From Scenedesmus sp. PABB004 (Eukaryota), in assembly GCA_014905635.1 (NCBI GenBank), contig CM026547.1, positions 2,666,001 through 2,730,000 on the forward strand: DNA of 64,000 nucleotides. Direction: 5' to 3'. Made by a program: the position numbers and the translations under genes. Under the pieces are notes generated by a model. That model saw only the letters and a list, made by a program, of their open reading frames with translations, had not been told where the DNA came from and made no database searches. Below, piece by piece: positions 4,818 through 38,239 of this stretch (its first letter is position 1; each line of letters starts with the position of its first letter).

Positions 4818-5240
<423 letters not shown>

Positions 5241-13204: not shown

Positions 13205-14907
13205 TCACGCCCACCGCACCGCCACGCGCGGCTCCAGGCCCGCCAGCAGCTCGCGGACGCGCTGCGGCGGCGCCCTGCGCGTCAATCCCTCCAGGCTGAG
13301 CTCCTTGAGCGCCTGCAGGGGGCGGCGCGCGGCACCGCGCGGGCGCGCGAGCCGCGTGAGCGCCGGCGGTGCCGCCACGGCCTGGGGCGCTCGGCGGGCA
13401 GCGGCGGCGGCGGGGCGCGCACCGTGCAGCGCGTCAGCACGTCCAGGCTGGGCCAGTCGATTGCCCAGTTGTGGCCCAGCGACAGCGAGGACAGGCTGGC
13501 GCAGCCCGCCAGCTCGCTGGGCAGCGCGAGCGCGCCGCGCTTGTCGGACACGTTGTCCAGCTGTAGCGCGGCGAGGTGCGGCAATTGTCGCGCGAGCTGC
13601 TCGAGCAGGCGGGGCGTCGCGGCGAGGCCGGACAGCCAGTTGTGCGACGCGCTGAGGGCGGCCATGCCCCTCCAGGCGCACAGCGCCGCGGGGCAGAGCG
13701 CCGTGAGCTGGTTGTGCGCGGCGTCGAACGCGGTGAGGGCGGTGAGCTCGGCCAGCCCCGCGCTGAGCTCGGTGAGAGCGTTCCGGCTGAGGTCCAGCGC
13801 CTGCCAGGCGGCGCGGCGGCGACGCGGCGCGGGCGTGCCACGGGGCGCCGCGACGCGGGGGCGCGCCGCGCGCGGGCGCCCGCCCGCGCGCCGCCGCCGC
13901 ACCTCGAGCCCCACCAGGGCACGCCAGCCGCCCCAGGGCAGCACCCGGAGTGCGTTGTCCGCCAGCACGAGGCGGCGCAGCAGCCGCGGCGCGCCCGCCG
14001 TCTCCCGCAGCAGCTCCGCGACGCCGGCGTCGCCCAGGCCGCAGCCCGGCAGAACAAGCTCGCGCAGGCCCGTCAGTGCGTGCACCGCCGGCGGCAGGCA
14101 GCCGAGCGGCACGCGGCGCAGCTCCATTGACGTGAGCTGGGGCGCCCAGACGGTGGGGTCGAGCCACAGGCACGTGCGCGCGGCCGGCACGTCGTCGGCG
14201 TCGCCGCCGTCCGCGCCGCGAGGCGTGTGCGCAGGCCCGACTGCCAGGCGCCGCAGGCCTGCCGGGCGGCGCGGGAGGGGGCGTGTGGGCATCGGCGGAG
14301 GAGGCGCAGCAGCGCGCGCACGCCGCGCGCGCACCCACCCGGTGGCGCTGCAAGCCAGTCAGGGAGCCAGAGCGCCTGGAGGCTCGAGTCAGCGGCGAGG
14401 TGCAGGTGCTGGTCGCCTCGAGTGTGCCAGCCGCCGCCGCCGCGCGCGGCCTCGTGCGCCCCCCGCAGGCCGCCCAGCTCCTGCAGCTGCTCGCTGCTCA
14501 GGAACAGGCTGGCCAGGCGCGTGTGATCCCCGAGGGCAGCTTGCAGGGCGCCGTAGGAGCTCGTGGCGAGGAGGCACCTGCGCCGGCGAGCGGCGGCTTG
14601 CAGCGGCTTGCGACGCCTTGCATGCACTTCCAGGGGCGCCCTATTTAGTTTAGGCAGCCACGCACCGCCCCGACTTCTCGAGATGGAGCTCCCTCAGCGC
14701 CGGGAGACGGCGCAGCAGCGCAGCGAGGGCCGCTGGCTCGCCGCCGCCCCCTGGTTCGCCGCCGGTCGGCGCCAGAGCGAGCAGCACGGCTTCCGTACTT
14801 GCTCGCATGCGGGCGCTGGCAGCACGCAGTGCCCCGGCGTCGCGCGGCGGCAGGGACGACAGCAGCCGGCCGACCGCCTCCAGCGGGAGCTCGTCGAGCG
14901 CGCCCAT
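13205..14907 (-). CDS. F-box-like / leucine-rich-repeat protein, spliced
   Basis: N-terminal LDELPLEAVGRLLSSLPPRDAGALRAASARMR; LRRs LDLSRNALTEL, FDAAHNQLTAL, LSASHNWLSGL, LSLGHN; 3' end uncertain. Confidence 0.75.
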
Positions 14908-15156
14908 CCTGACTGGTGCGGCTCGTGCGGCTCGGCGTCGGCGTCGGTGTCGGGTGCGGGCGCTCTGGCCGGCGCGGCGGCGGGCGCGCGGGCTGGCGGG
15001 CGGTTTCGTGGCCTCGTCAGAACACGGCAGAAGCGCGTCGTGTGGAAGATTGTTCAAGCGCCAAGATTATTCAGACCTCAGTGGGCAGGTATTGCGAGTG
15101 CAAGTGCAACGGGACCGATCGGGTGCTCAGTGCTGAAACGCCCACACGGCCCTGCG

Positions 15157-15906
15157 TCATGCGACCCCCAAGCGCTGCCCGCCCTTGGCCTGGTGCTGCA
15201 CGCCGCCGCCGGACGCGTCGCACCACGCGGCGACGCGGCAGCCGCCGCCGCCGCCGCCGCCGCCCGCCGGCGCCAGCCCCGCCGCGTGCGGCGGCGGCGG
15301 CGGTCCCAGGCTGCAGCCGCTCGCGTCGCTGCACTGCGCCAGCTCGTCCGCGGCGAGGAGCTGGGGCAGCGCGCCCCCGCCCAGCGCCGGCGGCCCCCAG
15401 CCCTCCTCCTGCTGCTGCCGCTGCTGCCGCCGCCGCTGCTGCTGCAGCCGCTGCGCGCTGTTGCCCGCCCCGCGCTGCGCCGCCAGCTGCGCCGCCGCGC
15501 GGCGCGCCTGCTCCTGCTCGCTCTGCATGAGGTGCGCCTTGGTGGCCTGCAGCGAGAGGTGGGTCTTGAAGTCCCGCCCCGCGGGGTCGACCGGCAGCCA
15601 GGGGTCCTGCAGCACGCGGTAGTGGCACCCCAGCACCACGCCGCCGCCCAGCGGCGTGTCCGCCGCCAGCACCACGGCCGCCGCGCCGGCCGCCCCGCCC
15701 GCCGGCGCCGCCGCGCGCGCAGGCGCGAGCAGCGCCAGCAGGCCCTCGGCCTCGCCGCCGCCGTGTGCGCTGGCGTGCACGCCGGACGCCACGGCCGCCG
15801 GCGCCGGCGGCTGCAGGGCGGGCACGGCCAGCGGCGGCCGCGCGCAGGGCAGCCCCGTCGAAGCCGGGCACGCGGGCGAGCCCTCCGCCTGCTGCTGCTG
15901 CTGCTG

Positions 15907-15937
<31 letters not shown>

Positions 15938-16464
15938 TGCTGCACCTGCTGGTGCTGCTCCTGCTGCTGCGCCGGCTGCTCCTGCTGCGCCGCGGCGGCG
16001 GCGGCGGCCGCCGCCATAGCCTTGCGCATCTGCTTGAGCCAGCGCGCCAGGGCAGGCGCGGGCGGCAGCGCGTGCAGGCCCTCCATGGCGGCGCTGCCGA
16101 TGCCCAGGTATGCGGTCTGCACCGCGGCGCTCTGGTCGGGCAGCGCGCCCCTGCGGCCGGCGGCGCGGCGCGGCGCCGCGGCTCGGCCGGCCGGCCGCCG
16201 CCGGGCCGCGCGCGGGCGCTGCGGCGCGGCCGCTGGGGCGCGTGCCCCGCCCCCCCCCCCCCCCTGCACGCGCGCGCGCGCTCACCGGTGCTTGCGGGGT
16301 ATGGGCACCAGGTAGGCGCCCGCGTTGCTGGGCTCGGCGACAAAGTCAAAGGTGATGAGCTGCAGGTCTGGCTCCACCACCAGCGCCTCCTGCGTGAGGT
16401 CGACCGCCACCGACGCCCAGCCGCGGCTGCTCACGCCCAGCTTGATGCCCTGCGCGCCCGCGCC

Positions 16465-16497
<33 letters not shown>

Positions 16498-17150
16498 CGC
16501 CGCGCGGGCGGGCGGGCGGGCGCCCGGGCCGCGCCGCCGCGCCGCCGCGCGCACCCGGCTGTACAGCTCTCGCAGCAGCAGCCCCGCGGGCGTCGGCAGC
16601 ACTTCGATGGTGCCCCACAGCTCGTTCCCGCGCCAGGCGACCGAGAGCACCTGGTGGCTGACGTTGGGCAGGTTGAGGGACCGGAACCACGGGCTGGCGT
16701 ATGAGGGGTGGTGCAGCTCGCCCAGCGCCGTGCCGGCGCGGATGTGCGCCGCCCGGAAGCGCGACACCTCGCGCCGCAGCACGGCGCGCGGGTAGACCCG
16801 ATCATTGGTGTTCTTGGCGTCGGCGCGCGCAAACAGGCCTGTGCACGGCGCGCGGCGCGGGGTGGCTGCCGTGCTGCTGTGCGCTGCTTGGCGCGCCGGC
16901 GGCGGCGCCGGCGCCAGCGGCACAGCACACCGTGCACGATGAGGCGGCCCTGGTTGAGGCGCGTGGACAGCTCAAACAGCTCCGCCACCTGCGACGGCGC
17001 GGCGCGGCTCAGGCGCTGCGCGCGGCGCCAGCGCCGGAGCAGCGGCGCTCGCATCGCGGCGGCGCGGCGGCGCGCTCGGTTGCCCACCTCCTCGCGGCCC
17101 AGCTCGCACGCATCCCGCCTCCGCCACATCCCGCACAGCCCGCACGCCAT
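15157..17150 (-). CDS. T4 gp21-like prohead core (capsid maturation) serine protease domain with polyQ/Ala C-terminal extension; exons 17150-17088, 16988-16931, 16838-16555, 16449-16286, 16150-15157
   Basis: Four GT-AG introns join in one frame: RLIVHGLFARADAKNTNDRVYPRAVLRREV..ALGELHHP..VSHQVLSVAWRGNELWGTIEVLPTPAGLLLRELYSRGIKLGVSSRGWASV..LITFDFVAEPSNAGAYL. Confidence 0.9.
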
Positions 17151-17421
17151 GGGGCGGCCGCGCGGGACACGCCGCCTCTCAGCGGCGCGCCCCGGCCCTC
17201 TCCGATGCCGGGACGCGCAGCCCACCGTCCGTGAGCGTTCCTGGACACACGCTCCGCGGCGGTCCGGCTGCACCGGCCGGCGCTCGCCGCGGGACGCAGC
17301 CGGCAAAGTCTGCTGCTCTCGCGCGCCTGCCTCTGGGCGCGGCGGCGGCGCGCGGCACGGCGCGGCGTCCGGCGACTCGTGCGGCGGTGATGGAGCGACG
17401 GCCTGCGCCACGCCGCGGCGT

Positions 17422-24893: not shown

Positions 24894-26372
24894 TCGCTGC
24901 CATCGCCGGCGCCGGCGCCGCCGTCGGCCTCGAGCTGGGCATGCGGCCGCCGCTGCGACAGCCACCGGCGGCGCCCGCGGGCGGGTCGGCGCCGCGGCGG
25001 CTGCGCGCCGGGCGCCGCGCGCGCTCGCCCGTGCTGCCCCCGCCGCCGCCGCGCCCGCCCGTGCCTGCACGCGCAGCGCCACGCTCGCGAGTGCGATTGC
25101 CTTTGGGATCTCCACGCCGACGCCGAGGCCGCCAAAGTCGACCGCCTTGAGCCGCGGGTTGCGGTGGCTGTTGACCCACACCCCCAGTGCATGCGCGCCC
25201 GCGCCCGCGTGCAGCAGCACGCCGCCCCTGCCGTCCGCGTGCTCGTCGGCGCACTGCGGCGCGGGCGCGGTCGCGGCCGTGGAGGCGCGTGGGGCACACG
25301 AGCCCCCATGTGGCGCTCGGGCGGCGGCAGCCGCGGCGCGCCGGCGCCAGCGCGCTCACCAGCAGCACAGCGGCCGTGGCTGCGTCGACGGTCCGCGCCG
25401 CCTCCTGGTGCAGCCGCGCGGCGTCGGCGCGCGCCTGCGCGCTGGCCGCGGCCGCCGCGTCCGTGGCGGCGCACGCCCGCACCAGCAGCAGCTCAGCGGG
25501 GCCGCCCAGCGGCAGCGGCGGCGCAGCGCCGGCGCCTGGCTCCGCGTGTGGGCCCGCCGCGAGTGCGGCGAGCGCGGCCAGCGCCGCGGCCGCCGCAGTC
25601 TCCTCTGCTGCCAGCGCCAGGCAGTCGTCCGCCAGCTGCACGCACGCCTGCGGCCGGCCGTGCCGCGGCGCGCCGTTCGCTGCGCGGCCGCGCGCCCGCG
25701 GGCCGCCGCGCGGCCGCCGTCCGCCGTCCGCCGCGCCCGCACCTCGCACTGCTGCAGCGCCTCCTCGAGCGAGAGATCGGCGCCGTCGGCGAGGGCGCCA
25801 AGGAAGGCGTTGATGTCTGGCCGGCTGCGCGGGTGGGGGAGCGGGCTGCAGCGCAGCGTGCGCTGCCAGTCCGCGCCGGCCGCCTCGGCCGCCGCCGCCG
25901 CCGCGCGCTCCGCCGCCAGCTCGTGCAGGTGGGGCGCGAGCTCCAGCCTGCGCGCGCGGGCGGCGCGCGCGCGGGCGCCGGCGGCCTGCGACGCCCGGCC
26001 GCCGACGCTGCAGCGCGCCGCGCCGCGCGGGCCCATGCCGCGCGCGGGGCCGCCGCCGCGCACCGCTCCGCCGCCAGCCGCGCGTCGCGCGCCGCCTCGA
26101 GGTCCTGCAGCAGCTGGCGCCGCCGCGCCTCAACCTGCTCCGCCACGAGACGGGCCTCCTCCTCCTGCCGCGCGCGCTCTGCGCGGCGGCGTACCGGCAG
26201 CGCGGCGCGTCGGCGGCAGGCTCGGCGCGTCGCCCGGCGCGGCGCCGCGCCGCCGGCGGCGCGGCGCGCCGCGGGCGCGCGCTGCCTCACCCGCCTCTGC
26301 CGCGCGCGCCGCCTCCTCCCGCGCCGCGCGCGCTGCGGCAATCTCCTCCTTGGTACGCTTCTTGGGAGCCAT
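23263..26372 (-). CDS. CASC1: CASC1 / DNAI7 (IC97/FAP94-like) inner-arm dynein-associated protein, multi-exon
   Basis: MAPKKRTKEE coiled coil; DWQRTLRCSPLPHPRSRPDINAFL; LGVWVNSHRNPRLKAVDF; PRVGWWDERRGAWCEEGV; LVPFRGWTVRP. Confidence 0.8.
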
Positions 26373-36000: not shown

Positions 36001-38239
36001 GTCGCCCTGTGGGCCGCGGGGCCCCTGGGCGCGGCGATAGGGGCGGTGTGGGGGCTGCTGGGCCGGCGCAGGTGCTGCTGCACTTGAAGCAGCGCGGCCG
36101 CTGCCGGGGGGCGTCGCGCATCCCTGGCAGAGCGCATGCGCTCGCTCCCTCTTCTCGTGCTCCCTGCCAGCGCGCTCACGCCATGCGCCGCCGCCGCCGC
36201 CGCCCGCCGCTGCTCGCCGGCGCCGCGCCGCGCGCAGGTCGCGGCCGGCCGTGTCGCGCTCGCTGTCGCGCGGCGCCAGCGTGCACGACCCGGTGTCCGA
36301 CGCGGAGGCGCTGGCGGCGGCGCAGGCGGCGGCGGCGCCCGGCGGCTCGGCCCCGGCCCCCGGCGACGACGACGGGGCCGCCGGCGGCGGCGACGCGCTG
36401 AGCAACGAGGCCATGGTGTGGGAGATGCTCTACAACCCCTCCTTCAGCCTGCCCACCGCCGAGGCGGAGGCGGCGTGGCGCCGCGCGATGGGCCGCGACG
36501 ACGGCGAGCCCGAGGCGCTCGACGCGTCGGAGCTCGAGGCGCTCTCGCCCGACGAGCTGACCGCGCTCGTGGCGGGCCGCGCGCGCGTCATCGCGGAGCG
36601 CGCGTTCTGGGACTCGATCGTGTGGCGCTTCAAGACGGCAGTCGTCGGCCACGCGCTGCCGGGCCAGCTCGCGCCGCTGCTGGCCGAGCTGGGCACCGAG
36701 CTCTCCGGCTTTGTGCGCGACGGCCTGGAGGCGGCGCAGCTGGCCGAGATGTACGCGGAGCCCGCGGTGCTGTCGCGCCTGAGCGCGCGCACGGGGCTGC
36801 AGGGCGGCGGCGCCAACCTCACCGCGCTGGGGGCGATGATGGAGCAGCTCGCCGCCGCGCTGCTCAAGGACGGCCCGCCCGAGCGCGGCGCAGAGGCCGC
36901 GGCCGCGGCGGCGGCGCTGCACGCGCGCATCGCGGCCGCGCTCGCGGCCGCGGCGGTGGCGGCGCCGAGCCGGCACAGCAGCAGCGGCGCGGCGGAGCCG
37001 CCCGCCGGGGGGCAGCCGGACGTCGCGGCGGCGCTGGCAGAGGCGCTGGCGGGCGGGCTGCGGCTGCTGATGACGCAGCTCAAGGTTGTCAAGCTCGACG
37101 CCGCCAACGCGCGGCTCGCGGGCCTCGCGCGCGCGATGCGCGAGCGCGGCGCGGTGGGGTACCTGCAGACCAAGCTCGCGTCGGCGTGGCAGCTGCCCGG
37201 CCCCGAGGCGCCCGGCGCCGCGGGCGCGGCCGAGCTCGCGGCGCGGCTGCCGCGCACCGCGGCGTGGCTCGCGGCGGCGCGCGCCGACGCGGCGCCGGCG
37301 CTGCGCGCGGGCATGGAGGCAGCCGGGCTGCTGCTTGACGCGCAGGCCGCGTCGGCGGCGGTCGTCGCGGGCGGGCTGCAGACGGTCGAGCTGCGCTCGG
37401 GCGTGCGCGCGTCGCCCGGCGCGTCGCCCAGCCCGCGCAGCCCCGGCGCCGGCGCGGGCGGCGCCGGCGGCGGCGGCGCGGTGCGGCCGTCGTTCCCCGT
37501 GTCGCCGGACAGCTGGCAGGGCGCCGTGCGCGCGGGCCTGCTGGCGCTCGTGGCGTCCGACGCGCCCGCGGCGGGGCCGGGCCTGCCCGAGGTGCTCGCC
37601 TTTGACCGTGCGCGCCTGCACGAGGCGCAGAACGCGCTGCAGCAGCTCCTCGTCACCGCGGCGGGGCTGCTCATCGTGCAGCAGCTTCGCGCCGCGGCGG
37701 GGCTGCCGTGGGACGGTGAGCTGCGCGCCGCGGCGCGGCGGCGCCTCATGGTCGTCGCGGCCGACCCCGGCACCAAGCTCGCGCACATCGTGGCCGAGCT
37801 CACCCACCTCGCCGGCGCCGGCGGCGTCGCCACGGAGCAGCGGGTGCGGCGCGCGCCGGCCGCGCCCCGCCTGCGCGCGCGCCCGCCGCTCGCGTGCGCC
37901 GCCGCTCATGCACGCCGTGTGCTGTGTGCTGTGCGCTGTGTGCTGGCGCAGGTGAAGGGCATGTTCACTGCCATTGTCAACCCCGAGGCCGCGGGCTTCA
38001 AGGCCATCCGCACCGCGCTCTCCGCCGCGCTCGGCGCCCACCTCATGTACGGCCGCGCCGCGCTGGCCGCCGACGGCGCCGCCGCGGCGGCGGCGGGCGC
38101 CGCGCTGTCGCGCGTCGGCGCGGCGGCGCTCGCGGACGACCTCGCGCAGCTGGGCGAGCGCCTGGCGGGCGTGGCGGCGGTGAGCGAGGCCGTGTGCGGC
38201 GACGTGCTGGCGACGCTCGCGGGCGTCGGCAGCGCGTGA
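33091..38239 (+). CDS. T-complex protein 11 (TCP11/SOK1) family protein, multi-exon
   Basis: RYPVRVLLCAFMIQEHPEVVF, FDDSWLEYLDQFVVWKGHD, NEAMVWEMLYNPSF, AERAFWDSI, LPEVLAFDRARLHEAQ. Confidence 0.88.

What the first reader, a model, noticed from the sequence alone, without database searches (positions are those of the whole stretch)
15157..17150. Intron-containing nuclear gene for a T4 gp21-type phage prohead protease
Seen: five exons with canonical GT-AG introns splice into one frame carrying GxFxxADxKNxNxRVYP, ALGELHHP, VSH, GxxEVLPTPxG, KLGVSSRG and FDFVAEPS in order. Known: these are the motifs of the T4 gp21 / Peptidase_S77 capsid maturation protease, whose catalytic His, Ser and Asp sit in GELxHP, GVSSRG and the D before VxxPS; all three are present here. 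No capsid, portal, terminase or other viral gene is visible in the window, and flanks, introns and composition are host-like. Inference: an old virus-to-alga transfer domesticated as a cellular protease with unknown substrate. The ORF track splits it across frames, so it is easy to miss.
Basis: partly seen in the sequence, partly recalled or inferred. Interest (0 to 1): 0.92.

Follow-up and report, generated by a model that had tools for sequence, protein, structure and literature searches.

The report
Phage head protease gene kept by algae
This is a real, intron-containing algal gene descended from the enzyme that T4-like bacteriophages use to mature their heads; green algae and other protists keep it with its catalytic residues intact, databases already list it, and nobody knows what it cuts.

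Summary
On the minus strand, 17150..15157, five exons joined by four GT-AG introns give a 520-aa protein.

The protease part scores above Pfam's cut-off for Peptidase_S77 (E 1.8e-11). A fold of the window's own frame matches T4 gp21 at Z 18.0. Window His84, Ser142 and Asp170 align with T4 His85, Ser140 and Asp168.

Neighbouring genes are ordinary eukaryotic ones. The same LRR gene follows it in Tetradesmus obliquus. Orthologues occur in Chlamydomonas, Volvox, Dunaliella, Monoraphidium, Ulva and Tetraselmis, and in unnamed eukaryote transcriptomes.

In my tree, 47 eukaryote-type rows separate from 19 phage rows at 100/99 support. The eukaryote-type proteins share a 5-residue insertion and a Cys-rich N-terminus that phage proteins lack. 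I read the N-terminus as a lipid-anchor signal.

It is not new. A 2021 review lists S77 in Chlamydomonas (Cre03.g157100) with role unknown. This scan reported the same family twice before on other DNA.

The parts
17088..17150 (-). Exon 1 (63 nt): start codon at 17150-17148. Encodes MACGLCGMWRRRD..., with Cys3 (17144-17142) and Cys6 (17135-17133) followed by a basic run. This is the putative S-acylation signal.
   Evidence: The alignment with P0002, P0001 and P0037 runs across the junction. An N-terminal Cys motif is present in 46 of 49 eukaryote-type proteins against 2 of 87 phage proteins.
16989..17087 (-). Intron 1, 99 nt, GT..AG. It is in frame and has no stop, so retention cannot be excluded without RNA.
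   Evidence: Homologues lack this segment.
16931..16988 (-). Exon 2 (58 nt): VAELFELSTRLNQGRLIVHG, the N-terminal helix and first strand of the protease domain.
16839..16930 (-). Intron 2, 92 nt, GT..AG. Not a multiple of three.
   Evidence: Read in the frame of exon 3, this stretch and what lies upstream of it have pLDDT of 42-50.
16555..16838 (-). Exon 3 (284 nt): the core of the protease domain. It carries catalytic His84 (16710-16708) in ALGELHHP, the 5-residue eukaryote-type insertion, and the invariant His102 (16656-16654) in NVSHQV.
16450..16554 (-). Intron 3, 105 nt, GT..AG. It is in frame, has no stop, and would encode an Arg/Ala/Pro-rich stretch if read through.
   Evidence: It is absent from all aligned homologues. 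pLDDT is 53-79 over this stretch against 90 or more on either side.
16286..16449 (-). Exon 4 (164 nt): catalytic Ser142 (16431-16429) in KLGVSSRG and Asp170 (16347-16345) in FDFVAEPS.
16151..16285 (-). Intron 4, 135 nt, GTGAGC..CAG, containing a run of 14 G. If retained, the frame stops one codon into the intron (CGG TGA). That would give a protease-domain-only protein of about 191 aa.
   Evidence: P0001 (192 aa) ends at this point and P0002 (233 aa) turns to unrelated sequence there.
15157..16150 (-). Exon 5 (994 nt, stop TGA at 15159-15157): the eukaryote-specific C-terminal extension. It holds the conserved LPDQSAAVQTAYLGIGS (16143-16093), Gln/Ala-rich low-complexity linkers, and the conserved module GGGVVLGCHYRVL...THLSLQATKAHLMQ (15648-15523).
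   Evidence: No Pfam family reached its cut-off. GC3 is 0.97 in this frame. In the model of homologue P0007 the equivalent module is confident.
13423..15066 (-). Downstream neighbour on the same strand, an LRR protein gene. The ORF at 14650-15066 starts with Met about 90 bases below its upper end. It is not part of the protease gene but is syntenic with it.
   Evidence: Residues 335-674 of Tetradesmus obliquus P0037 match 14552-13423. LRR_8 hit. In Tetradesmus the two genes are merged in one 712-aa gene model.

Best explanation
This is an ordinary, vertically inherited nuclear gene of a chlorophycean green alga. It encodes a serine endopeptidase of the T4 gp21 type (MEROPS S77, clan SH, assemblin fold). 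An ancestor of the eukaryote-type genes took it from a T4-like tailed phage, and it has been re-equipped for a cellular job.

Shown here:
- the five-exon structure;
- membership of the S77 family and the fold;
- an intact His/Ser/Asp triad;
- a cellular gene neighbourhood;
- orthologues across green algae and further eukaryote-type proteins;
- one well-supported split between eukaryote-type and phage proteins;
- three eukaryote-type additions that phages lack: a Cys-rich (often Met-Gly-Cys) N-terminus, a 5-residue insertion after GELxHP, and a conserved C-terminal module.

Inferred:
- The N-terminal cysteines are S-acylated, with N-myristoylation where Gly2 is present. This would tether the enzyme to the cytosolic face of a membrane, in place of the capsid-core targeting of the phage enzyme.
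- It is an active, limited-proteolysis enzyme.
- By analogy with gp21 and the herpesvirus proteases, it is probably held inactive until it self-cleaves or oligomerises.

The substrate and the membrane are unknown.
For: Gene structure.

Family: Pfam PF03420 at 44.4 bits against a cut-off of 27; PHROG 207 at E 8.7e-32.

Fold:
- The window's own frame gives pLDDT 80.9, and 90 or more over the exon-encoded core. It matches 5jbl_B at Z 18.0, rmsd 2.3, 139 residues aligned. Herpesvirus proteases follow at Z 9.9 and below.
- The model of homologue P0007 gives pLDDT 88 and pTM 0.86. It matches 5jbl at Z 15.3, rmsd 1.6, 142 aligned, and at Foldseek E 1.1e-9.

Triad:
- Window H84/S142/D170 align with T4 H85/S140/D168.
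- The 5jbl chain carries Ala where the T4 genome encodes H85 and S140. That fits an inactivated crystallisation mutant.
- PMC5694885 (passages read) speaks of a His, Ser, Asp triad for gp21.
- The triad is kept in 72 of 74 eukaryote-type domains.

Cellular setting:
- RabGAP, pseudouridine synthase, dynein LC8, ribosomal L13, SIP1, a dehydrogenase, LRR and Casc1_N were the only other Pfam hits among 150 ORFs in 1-27464.
- Tcp11, SLC35F, SET, ZIP, an amino-acid permease and FAA hydrolase lie further on. In all, 12 of the 25 GC3-selected ORFs had hits.
- GC is 75-84% throughout, the gene included.

Vertical descent:
- The window is sister to Tetradesmus obliquus P0037 (97/88), inside a 25-row chlorophycean clade (99/97) and a 30-row green clade (99/93).
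- The same LRR neighbour follows the gene.

Phage origin:
- At least 600 IMG/VR stretches encode relatives; the best 80 are 40-51% identical.
- L015 is a head module with terminase, portal, protease and major head protein.
- A pattern scan of one genome for each of 185,579 prokaryote species gave only 3 relatives, at 29-33% identity.

Eukaryote-type additions:
- Cys in the first 12 residues in 46 of 49 against 2 of 87; Gly2 plus Cys in 12 of 49 against 0 of 87.
- All 15 source-named green-algal proteins whose N-termini I read begin this way.
- The spacer between GExxxP and NxSH is 13 residues in 68 of 74 and 8 residues in 224 of 232.
Against: - No RNA of this organism was available, so expression and the removal of the two in-frame introns are not shown (one search listed no run).
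- Lipidation is inferred from sequence rules only. The window protein has Ala2, not Gly2, so at most S-acylation applies to it.
- Which unnamed proteins count as 'eukaryote-type' was my own call, made partly by eye on the very features counted. Two rows (P0167, P0096) were relabelled after I saw the quick tree and read their sequences.
- An earlier scan note on the same family (e1-563799) is marked 'part of it fell' on a later check, without saying which part.
- The tree is unrooted. One side of a branch is a clade only if the root lies among the phages.
- The phage rows were thinned to under 62% identity, and T4 itself was not in the tree.
- No substrate, localisation or activity is known for any member. 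The review says so for Chlamydomonas.
Confidence: 0.8

Rival explanations
1. The gene is part of a recently integrated virus or a contaminating phage fragment, not a host gene. Candidates would be a giant virus, a mirusvirus-like element or a phage.
For: The protein family is otherwise viral. All 168 BFVD matches at E<=0.001 that I saw listed were phage proteins, and phage records dominate the sequence hits.
Against: - Four spliceosomal-type GT-AG introns.
- About 80% GC, like the rest of the window, against 33-36% in phage locus L015.
- No capsid, portal or terminase family among 150 ORFs of the surrounding 27 kb, nor among the selected ORFs further on.
- Orthologues in many algal genomes, with a tree that follows algal groups, and a shared LRR neighbour in Tetradesmus.
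Confidence: 0.02
2. The gene is a decaying relic that evolves neutrally and makes no working protein.
For: No RNA evidence for this organism. Long low-complexity Gln/Ala stretches in exon 5.
Against: - The 520-codon frame is open across five exons.
- 76% identity to Tetradesmus over 170 domain columns.
- The triad is kept in 72 of 74 eukaryote-type members.
- GC3 of 0.89-0.97 in the coding frames.
- Relatives appear in records whose source names look like transcriptome ORFs (GHUV/GHRR/GHRQ, MMETSP).
Confidence: 0.03
3. It is a working protease but not lipid-anchored. The Cys-rich N-terminus would do something else: bind metal, form disulfides, act as a sorting or pro-peptide removed on activation, or simply reflect poor gene starts.
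For: - T4 gp21 is activated by removal of nine N-terminal residues that block the active site (PMC9958956, passages read), so an N-terminal regulatory peptide has precedent.
- The window protein lacks Gly2.
Against: - The motif sits at the very N-terminus in 46 of 49 proteins.
- In 12 of them it has the Met-Gly-Cys form. From general knowledge this is the classical N-myristoylation plus palmitoylation signal.
- It is followed by basic residues in the window protein.
- Phage proteins lack it: 2 of 87 have Cys there.
Confidence: 0.13
4. It has lost catalysis in practice and serves as a scaffold or binding protein, that is, a pseudo-enzyme.
For: Two eukaryote-type relatives have lost the Ser: P0089, and P0101, which carries a RING finger. 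So non-catalytic use of the fold does occur.
Against: The window protein and 72 of 74 relatives keep His, Ser and Asp, and also the second invariant His.
Confidence: 0.02

Closest known systems
Bacteriophage T4 gp21 prohead core protease (MEROPS S77, Pfam PF03420, PDB 5jbl)
   Same: Same sequence family and same fold: Z 18.0 for the window's own frame. The His/Ser/Asp positions are the same.
   Different: - T4 gp21 is 212 aa and sits between portal, scaffold and capsid genes. It works inside the prohead.
- The algal protein is 520 aa and is encoded with introns among cellular genes.
- It has a Cys-rich N-terminus, a 5-residue insertion and a long C-terminal extension.
- Where T4 has Ile98 it has an invariant His.
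- Identity to the 5jbl chain is only 24% over the aligned residues.
Head-maturation proteases of uncultured T4-like marine and freshwater phages (IMG/VR loci such as L015; about 198-215 aa), and of Microcystis phage Mel-JY01
   Same: These are the closest non-eukaryotic relatives. Uncultured phages are 40-51% identical and Mel-JY01 is 37.9% identical. They share the NxSH histidine that T4 lacks.
   Different: - They lie in real head modules: terminase, portal, protease and major head protein in L015; large terminase, protease and T4-like capsid protein in Mel-JY01.
- They have no N-terminal Cys motif and an 8-residue rather than 13-residue spacer.
- They form the opposite side of a 100/99 branch.
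Chlamydomonas reinhardtii Cre03.g157100 (XP_001697524.1) and the other green-algal S77 proteins
   Same: Orthologous family with the same architecture: Cys-rich N-terminus, S77 domain, PDQ...LGxG motif and a conserved C-terminal module. The protease review lists it as clan SH, family S77, 'bacterial' type, with role unknown.
   Different: The window's copy belongs to the branch that holds Tetradesmus and Monoraphidium, not the Volvocales branch. Its C-terminal module is of the GCHYRVL...THLSL.ATKAHL type seen in P0006 and P0059, rather than LLxYSHYVV...HARDY.
Herpesvirus assemblin proteases (MEROPS S21; VZV, HCMV, KSHV structures)
   Same: Same clan and fold. Z is 9.9 to 6.5 for the window frame and 8.4 to 6.5 for P0007. 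For P0007 the aligned range runs to residue 331, that is, into the algal C-terminal module.
   Different: Sequence identity is 9-18%. From general knowledge the herpesvirus triad is Ser-His-His, whereas here it is His-Ser-Asp. They are not sequence-family members.

Membership tests
Peptidase_S77 / T4 gp21 family (sequence family) | Score above Pfam's curated cut-off for PF03420 | tested here: met
   44.4 bits against a cut-off of 27, E 1.8e-11, on the unspliced frame 16282-16971. PHROG 207 gives E 8.7e-32.
Peptidase_S77 / T4 gp21 family (sequence family) | Catalytic His, Ser and Asp at the gp21 positions | tested here: met
   Window H84/S142/D170 align with T4 H85/S140/D168. The H/S/D triad of gp21 is taken from passages of PMC5694885. 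The exact T4 residue numbers are from my own alignment.
Peptidase_S77 / T4 gp21 family (sequence family) | Assemblin-like fold (clan SH) | tested here: met
   The model of the window's own frame matches 5jbl_B at Z 18.0, rmsd 2.3, 139 aligned. Herpesvirus proteases follow.
Peptidase_S77 / T4 gp21 family (sequence family) | Serine endopeptidase activity | not testable with these tools
Prohead (capsid maturation) protease as a functional role | Encoded in a head-assembly module with portal, scaffold and major capsid protein, and acting inside a procapsid | tested here: not met
   No portal, terminase or capsid family among the 150 ORFs of 1-27464, nor among the 25 selected ORFs across the window. 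The neighbours are cellular genes. The whole genome could not be searched for a capsid-like partner.
N-terminally acylated (myristoylated/palmitoylated) membrane-tethered proteins | Gly2 for N-myristoylation | tested here: not met
   The window protein starts Met-Ala-Cys. Gly2 followed by Cys occurs in 12 of 49 eukaryote-type relatives.
N-terminally acylated (myristoylated/palmitoylated) membrane-tethered proteins | Cys close to the N-terminus, available for S-acylation and conserved in the family | tested here: met
   Cys3 and Cys6 in the window protein. 46 of 49 eukaryote-type proteins have Cys in the first 12 residues against 2 of 87 phage proteins.
N-terminally acylated (myristoylated/palmitoylated) membrane-tethered proteins | Lipid actually attached, and protein at a membrane | not testable with these tools
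   This needs acyl-exchange chemistry and localisation experiments.

The most novel reading that the evidence does not exclude
All eukaryote-type S77 proteins descend from one ancient phage-to-eukaryote transfer. They still run the self-processing logic of capsid proteases, but on a cellular membrane. On this reading:
- the enzyme is lipid-tethered through its N-terminus;
- it is held inactive by its own termini;
- the long isoform's conserved C-terminal module is the remnant of a phage protease-scaffold fusion;
- that module completes a herpesvirus-like fold, and the protease itself releases or rearranges it on local crowding.

Intron-4 retention would then give a constitutive, domain-only short form.
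Probability: 0.15. Interest if true: 0.75.

Novelty: new member of a known kind. Interest (0 to 1): 0.5.

Why it matters
Cellular genes taken from tailed phages and kept for hundreds of millions of years are few. The textbook cases, recalled and not checked here, are the mitochondrial RNA polymerase, DNA polymerase and primase-helicase.

A capsid-maturation protease kept with an intact active site across green algae and other protists, apparently moved to a membrane, is a clean case of a virion enzyme given a cellular job. It also has a model organism, Chlamydomonas (Cre03.g157100), in which the question can be answered.

For this window itself the value is mainly annotation. The gene is split over frames in 80% GC DNA and is easy to miss. 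In the nearest named relative it is mis-merged with its neighbour.

Tried and rejected
- Whole-genome search for a capsid-like or encapsulin partner: no genome is held for this window.
- RNA evidence: no RNA holder was listed for 15000-17400.
Their taxa stay unknown, except that P0070 comes from MMETSP/EukProt.
- Homodimer prediction for homologue P0007: no verdict, score 0.00 against a mark of 0.42. It says nothing either way.
- ESM Atlas: the window's C-terminal extension was not held. C. reinhardtii P0041 with PF03420 clusters left out gave only viral protease-like clusters at 0.87-0.90. That is lead level and adds nothing on the C-terminal module.
- Pfam on the C-terminal extension: only sub-threshold, low-complexity hits, such as TFIIA at 20.2 bits against a cut-off of 36.2.
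- The fold search gave no match confined to the C-terminal module other than single long helices at Z 2-3. I did not fold that module alone, so I make no claim about its fold.
- Literature:
  - 'prohead protease' + algae: 8 papers, none on this by title or abstract start.
  - 'Peptidase_S77': 0.
  - 'PF03420': 3, all on phages or prophages.
  - 'Cre03.g157100': 0.
  - 'prohead' + 'green algae' + 'horizontal gene transfer' + 'protease': 4, of which only the review is relevant.
  - 'head maturation protease' + 'eukaryotic genomes': 2, irrelevant.
- Prophage or bacterial donor: the pattern scan of prokaryote genomes found 3 distant loci at 29-33%. The scan is tied to two peptide patterns, so it is not proof of absence.
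- Reading the Tetradesmus S77+LRR model as a true fusion: rejected as the likelier artefact. That model skips the conserved C-terminal module. In the window the LRR gene has its own Met start about 250 bases below the protease stop codon.
Full report
WHAT IS THERE

The window is 75-84% G+C throughout, so all six frames stay open and the ORF track is of little use. Three findings on the minus strand pointed to the gene:
- The frame upstream holds an ATG at 17150.
- A 374-codon frame downstream ends at 15157.

Joining five exons with four GT..AG introns of 99, 92, 105 and 135 nt gives a 1563-nt CDS and a 520-aa protein. The exons are 17150-17088, 16988-16931, 16838-16555, 16449-16286 and 16150-15157. 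All quoted motifs are present, in order, at residues 41-57, 78-85, 102, 116-126, 138-145 and 169-176.

Proteins of relatives run uninterrupted across all four junctions. P0001 and P0002 cover junctions 1-3 and P0006 covers junction 4. Their source names look like transcriptome ORFs.

Introns 1 and 3 are in frame and free of stops. Their removal therefore rests on two things: homologues lack these segments, and a fold of the unspliced frame has low confidence there. pLDDT is 42-50 and 53-79 over the two read-through stretches against 90 or more over the exon-encoded core. No RNA run of this organism could be listed.

FAMILY, FOLD AND ACTIVE SITE

- The unspliced frame scores 44.4 bits on Pfam Peptidase_S77 against a cut-off of 27 (E 1.8e-11).
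- It scores E 8.7e-32 on PHROG 207, head maturation protease.
- It finds T4 gp21 (5jbl) by sequence at E 7.4e-5.
- An AlphaFold model of that same window frame, built with 32 homologues (mean pLDDT 80.9), aligns to 5jbl_B at Z 18.0, rmsd 2.3 Å, 139 residues. Herpesvirus proteases follow at Z 9.9 and below.
- A model of the compact homologue P0007 from Chlamydomonas eustigma (pLDDT 88, pTM 0.86) gives the same answer: Foldseek E 1.1e-9 and VIA Z 15.3. The viral structure library returns phage prohead proteases.

In an alignment with gp21 translated from the T4 genome, window His84, Ser142 and Asp170 fall on T4 His85, Ser140 and Asp168. The crystallised 5jbl chain has Ala at the His85 and Ser140 positions. 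That fits a deliberately inactivated enzyme. Passages of PMC5694885 speak of a His/Ser/Asp triad for gp21.

A HOST GENE, NOT A VIRUS

- I scanned all 150 stop-to-stop ORFs of 120 aa or more that lie in 1-27464. Eleven had a Pfam hit at E<=1e-6: RabGAP-TBC, pseudouridine synthase, dynein light chain, ribosomal L13 (two pieces), SIP1 (two pieces), a 6-phosphogluconate/3-hydroxyisobutyrate dehydrogenase-type NAD-binding enzyme, LRR, Casc1_N and this protease.
- Across the whole window I scanned 25 ORFs, 24 of them picked by codon-position G+C (26 of 455 ORFs passed the filter). Twelve had hits, all to cellular families. Tcp11, SLC35F, SET, ZIP, an amino-acid permease and FAA hydrolase were among them.
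- The part from 27.5 to 64 kb was therefore only sampled.
- The gene has the composition and intron style of its surroundings. A real phage locus with the closest protease is 33-36% G+C.

RELATIVES

The two searches with the window frame returned 36 and 28 proteins. Named ones come from these taxa:
- Tetradesmus obliquus (59% identical)
- Volvox carteri and V. africanus
- Pleodorina
- Chlamydomonas reinhardtii (XP_001697524.1), C. schloesseri, C. eustigma (two neighbouring gene numbers, g3177 and g3178) and C. sp. UWO 241
- Edaphochlamys, Astrephomene, Gonium, Tetrabaena, Dunaliella
- Monoraphidium minutum (named 'Prohead core protein protease-domain-containing protein')
- Ulva mutabilis
- Tetraselmis striata and T. 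chuii

A profile search of 1.84 billion representatives found 7797 proteins at E<=0.001 and 1182 at E<=1e-30. Most of the family is phage.

Further eukaryote-looking groups have long tails and start Met-Gly-Cys. One of them (P0070) comes from MMETSP/EukProt. Their taxa could not be looked up.

WHERE IT CAME FROM

- IMG/VR holds at least 600 stretches that encode relatives. The best 80 are 40-51% identical to the algal domain.
- One of them, L015, is a classical head module: large terminase, portal, protease, major head protein.
- Among cultured phages the best is Microcystis phage Mel-JY01 at 37.9%, then T4-like cyanophages at 32-34%.
- A pattern scan of one genome for each of 185,579 prokaryote species found only three relatives, at 29-33%.
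- 'Phage-type' therefore describes the gene better than the review's 'bacterial' label.

How the tree was built:
- I cut the protease domain from 306 sequences that covered at least 140 of 173 profile positions. The other 60 of the 366 hits were dropped. They were fragments or split matches, and one of the split matches that I read (P0097) carries an intein-like insert.
- I thinned phage rows to under 62% identity and eukaryote-type rows to under 80-95% identity.
- I then built a careful IQ-TREE of 66 rows and 171 columns.

What the tree shows:
- The 47 eukaryote-type rows and the 19 phage rows lie on opposite sides of one branch with 100/99 support.
- The window is sister to Tetradesmus (97/88). 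It sits in a 5-row clade (99/96), a 25-row chlorophycean clade (99/97) and a 30-row green clade that includes Ulva and Tetraselmis (99/93).

Limits of the tree:
- It is unrooted.
- T4 itself was not included.
- The label 'eukaryote-type' for unnamed rows is my own.
- Two rows that a crude length rule had first labelled as phage (P0167, P0096) were relabelled after I read them.

An independent marker agrees with the split. The spacer between GExxxP and NxSH is 13 residues in 68 of 74 eukaryote-type sequences (6 did not fit the pattern). It is 8 residues in 224 of 232 phage sequences (8 did not fit).

WHAT THE EUKARYOTIC VERSION GAINED

1. A Cys-rich N-terminus.
   - I compared proteins with a complete N-terminus. 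Among the eukaryote-type ones, 46 of 49 have Cys in the first 12 residues. 37 of 49 have two or more. 12 of 49 start Met-Gly with Cys at positions 3-7.
   - Among 87 phage proteins the figures are 2, 0 and 0.
   - All 15 source-named green-algal proteins whose starts I read show the motif.
   - The window protein starts MACGLCGMWRRRD.
   - From general knowledge, Met-Gly-Cys is the classical signal for N-myristoylation plus palmitoylation. N-terminal Cys next to basic residues is a common S-acylation context. I infer a lipid tether to the cytosolic face of a membrane. This is not shown.
2. The 5-residue insertion described above.
3. A C-terminal extension.
   - It holds a conserved PDQ...LGxG motif just after the domain and a conserved module near the end. 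In the window the module is GGGVVLGCHYRVL...THLSLQATKAHLMQ at 15648-15523.
   - Low-complexity linkers separate the two.
   - In the P0007 model this module is confidently placed: pLDDT 82-95 over residues 281-330.
   - Alignments to herpesvirus proteases extend to residue 331, whereas the gp21 alignment stops at 175.
   - This hints that the module completes the larger assemblin fold. It is weak evidence.

The triad is kept in 72 of 74 eukaryote-type domains. The two exceptions lack the Ser, and one of them (P0101) has a RING finger in front.

HOW IT MOST LIKELY WORKS

- Shown: an intact S77 protease domain in a cellular gene that has been conserved for a long time.
- Inferred: the enzyme is tethered to a membrane by acylated N-terminal cysteines and performs limited proteolysis of an unknown substrate.
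- By analogy: gp21 is a pentamer, its N-terminus blocks the active site, and it activates by self-cleavage (passages of PMC9958956). From general knowledge, herpesvirus proteases are activated by dimerisation. The algal enzyme is therefore probably activated by self-cleavage or local crowding.
- My one test of self-association gave no verdict.
- If intron 4 is retained, the frame stops one codon into the intron (CGG TGA). That would give a domain-only protein of about 191 aa. P0001 ends at that point and P0002 turns to unrelated sequence there. A short isoform is therefore possible but unproven.

COMPARISON WITH WHAT IS KNOWN, AND NOVELTY

The protein is a member of the S77 sequence family: profile, triad and fold were all tested and met. 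It is not a prohead protease in function, because the head-module context was tested and not met.

The family's presence in algae is already on record:
- The review of Chlamydomonas proteases (PMC8643629; passages and one row of Table S1 read) lists Cre03.g157100 as clan SH, family S77, 'bacterial' type. It says the role is unknown.
- NCBI already names the Monoraphidium protein after the domain.
- I found no paper that studies any algal member. Papers outside the searched library could exist.
- This scan noted the same family before on other DNA. Notes e1-564198 and e1-563799 (Ostreococcus) carry the same reading, including the lipid-anchor idea. The second is marked 'part of it fell' on a later check, without saying which part.

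This window therefore adds a new member: a Sphaeropleales-type orthologue in extremely GC-rich DNA. It also adds some family-level counts. It is not a new kind of thing.

VERDICT

- Novelty is modest.
- The biological question, what a capsid protease does in an algal cell, remains open and testable in Chlamydomonas.

Noticed in passing
window 13423-15066 (-) and Tetradesmus obliquus protein P0037: The gene just downstream on the same strand encodes an LRR protein. By eye, its N-terminus (MGALDELPLEAVGRLLSSLPP...) looks F-box-like, but Pfam found no F-box. The NCBI model for Tetradesmus obliquus merges the S77 protease and this LRR protein into one 712-aa protein and skips the conserved C-terminal module of the protease. 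The adjacency is conserved. The fusion is probably an annotation artefact.
   Followed up: partly
whole window: G+C is 75-84% in every 2-kb bin. Stop codons are so rare that 351 stop-to-stop ORFs of 120 aa or more exist in 64 kb. Only codon-position G+C (GC3 of about 0.9-0.97) and homology separate real exons from noise.
   Followed up: partly
protein P0101 (unnamed source): A eukaryote-type relative has a RING finger in front of an S77 domain whose catalytic Ser is Ala. P0089 has lost both His and Ser. These look like pseudo-protease offshoots of the family, one of them tied to ubiquitin-ligase-type chemistry.
   Followed up: partly
protein P0097 and similar 547-590-aa rows with two matched stretches: In these proteins the S77 domain is split into two matched stretches. 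I read only P0097: its low-complexity-free, phage-like sequence carries an insert of roughly 370 residues with a LAGLIDADG-like hit, placed between the GELDH motif and the NVSH motif. This looks like an intein in the prohead protease.
   Followed up: partly
window 16246-16259 (intron 4): A run of 14 G on the coding (minus) strand lies inside intron 4. This is a likely trouble spot for sequencing and assembly.
   Followed up: no
window 4818-5237 (+), 25359-26129 (-), 36041-38236 (+): Dynein light chain LC8, Casc1_N (an axonemal dynein-associated family) and Tcp11 lie in the same window. The organism therefore keeps genes of families that I recall as linked to cilia and flagella.
   Followed up: no
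Chlamydomonas eustigma proteins P0007 (g3177) and P0055 (g3178): Two S77 paralogues with consecutive gene numbers lie on the same 889-kb contig, which suggests a tandem duplication. The tree also shows a divergent green paralogue group (P0069, P0081, P0084, P0167) in which the second Ser of GVSSRG is replaced (Leu in three, Gln in P0167).
   Followed up: partly
alignment and counts: The His of the NxSH motif (window His102) is invariant in all 74 eukaryote-type and all 232 phage domains examined, but it is Ile in T4 gp21. From general knowledge, herpesvirus proteases use a Ser-His-His triad, so this second His may matter for catalysis in this subfamily.
   Followed up: no
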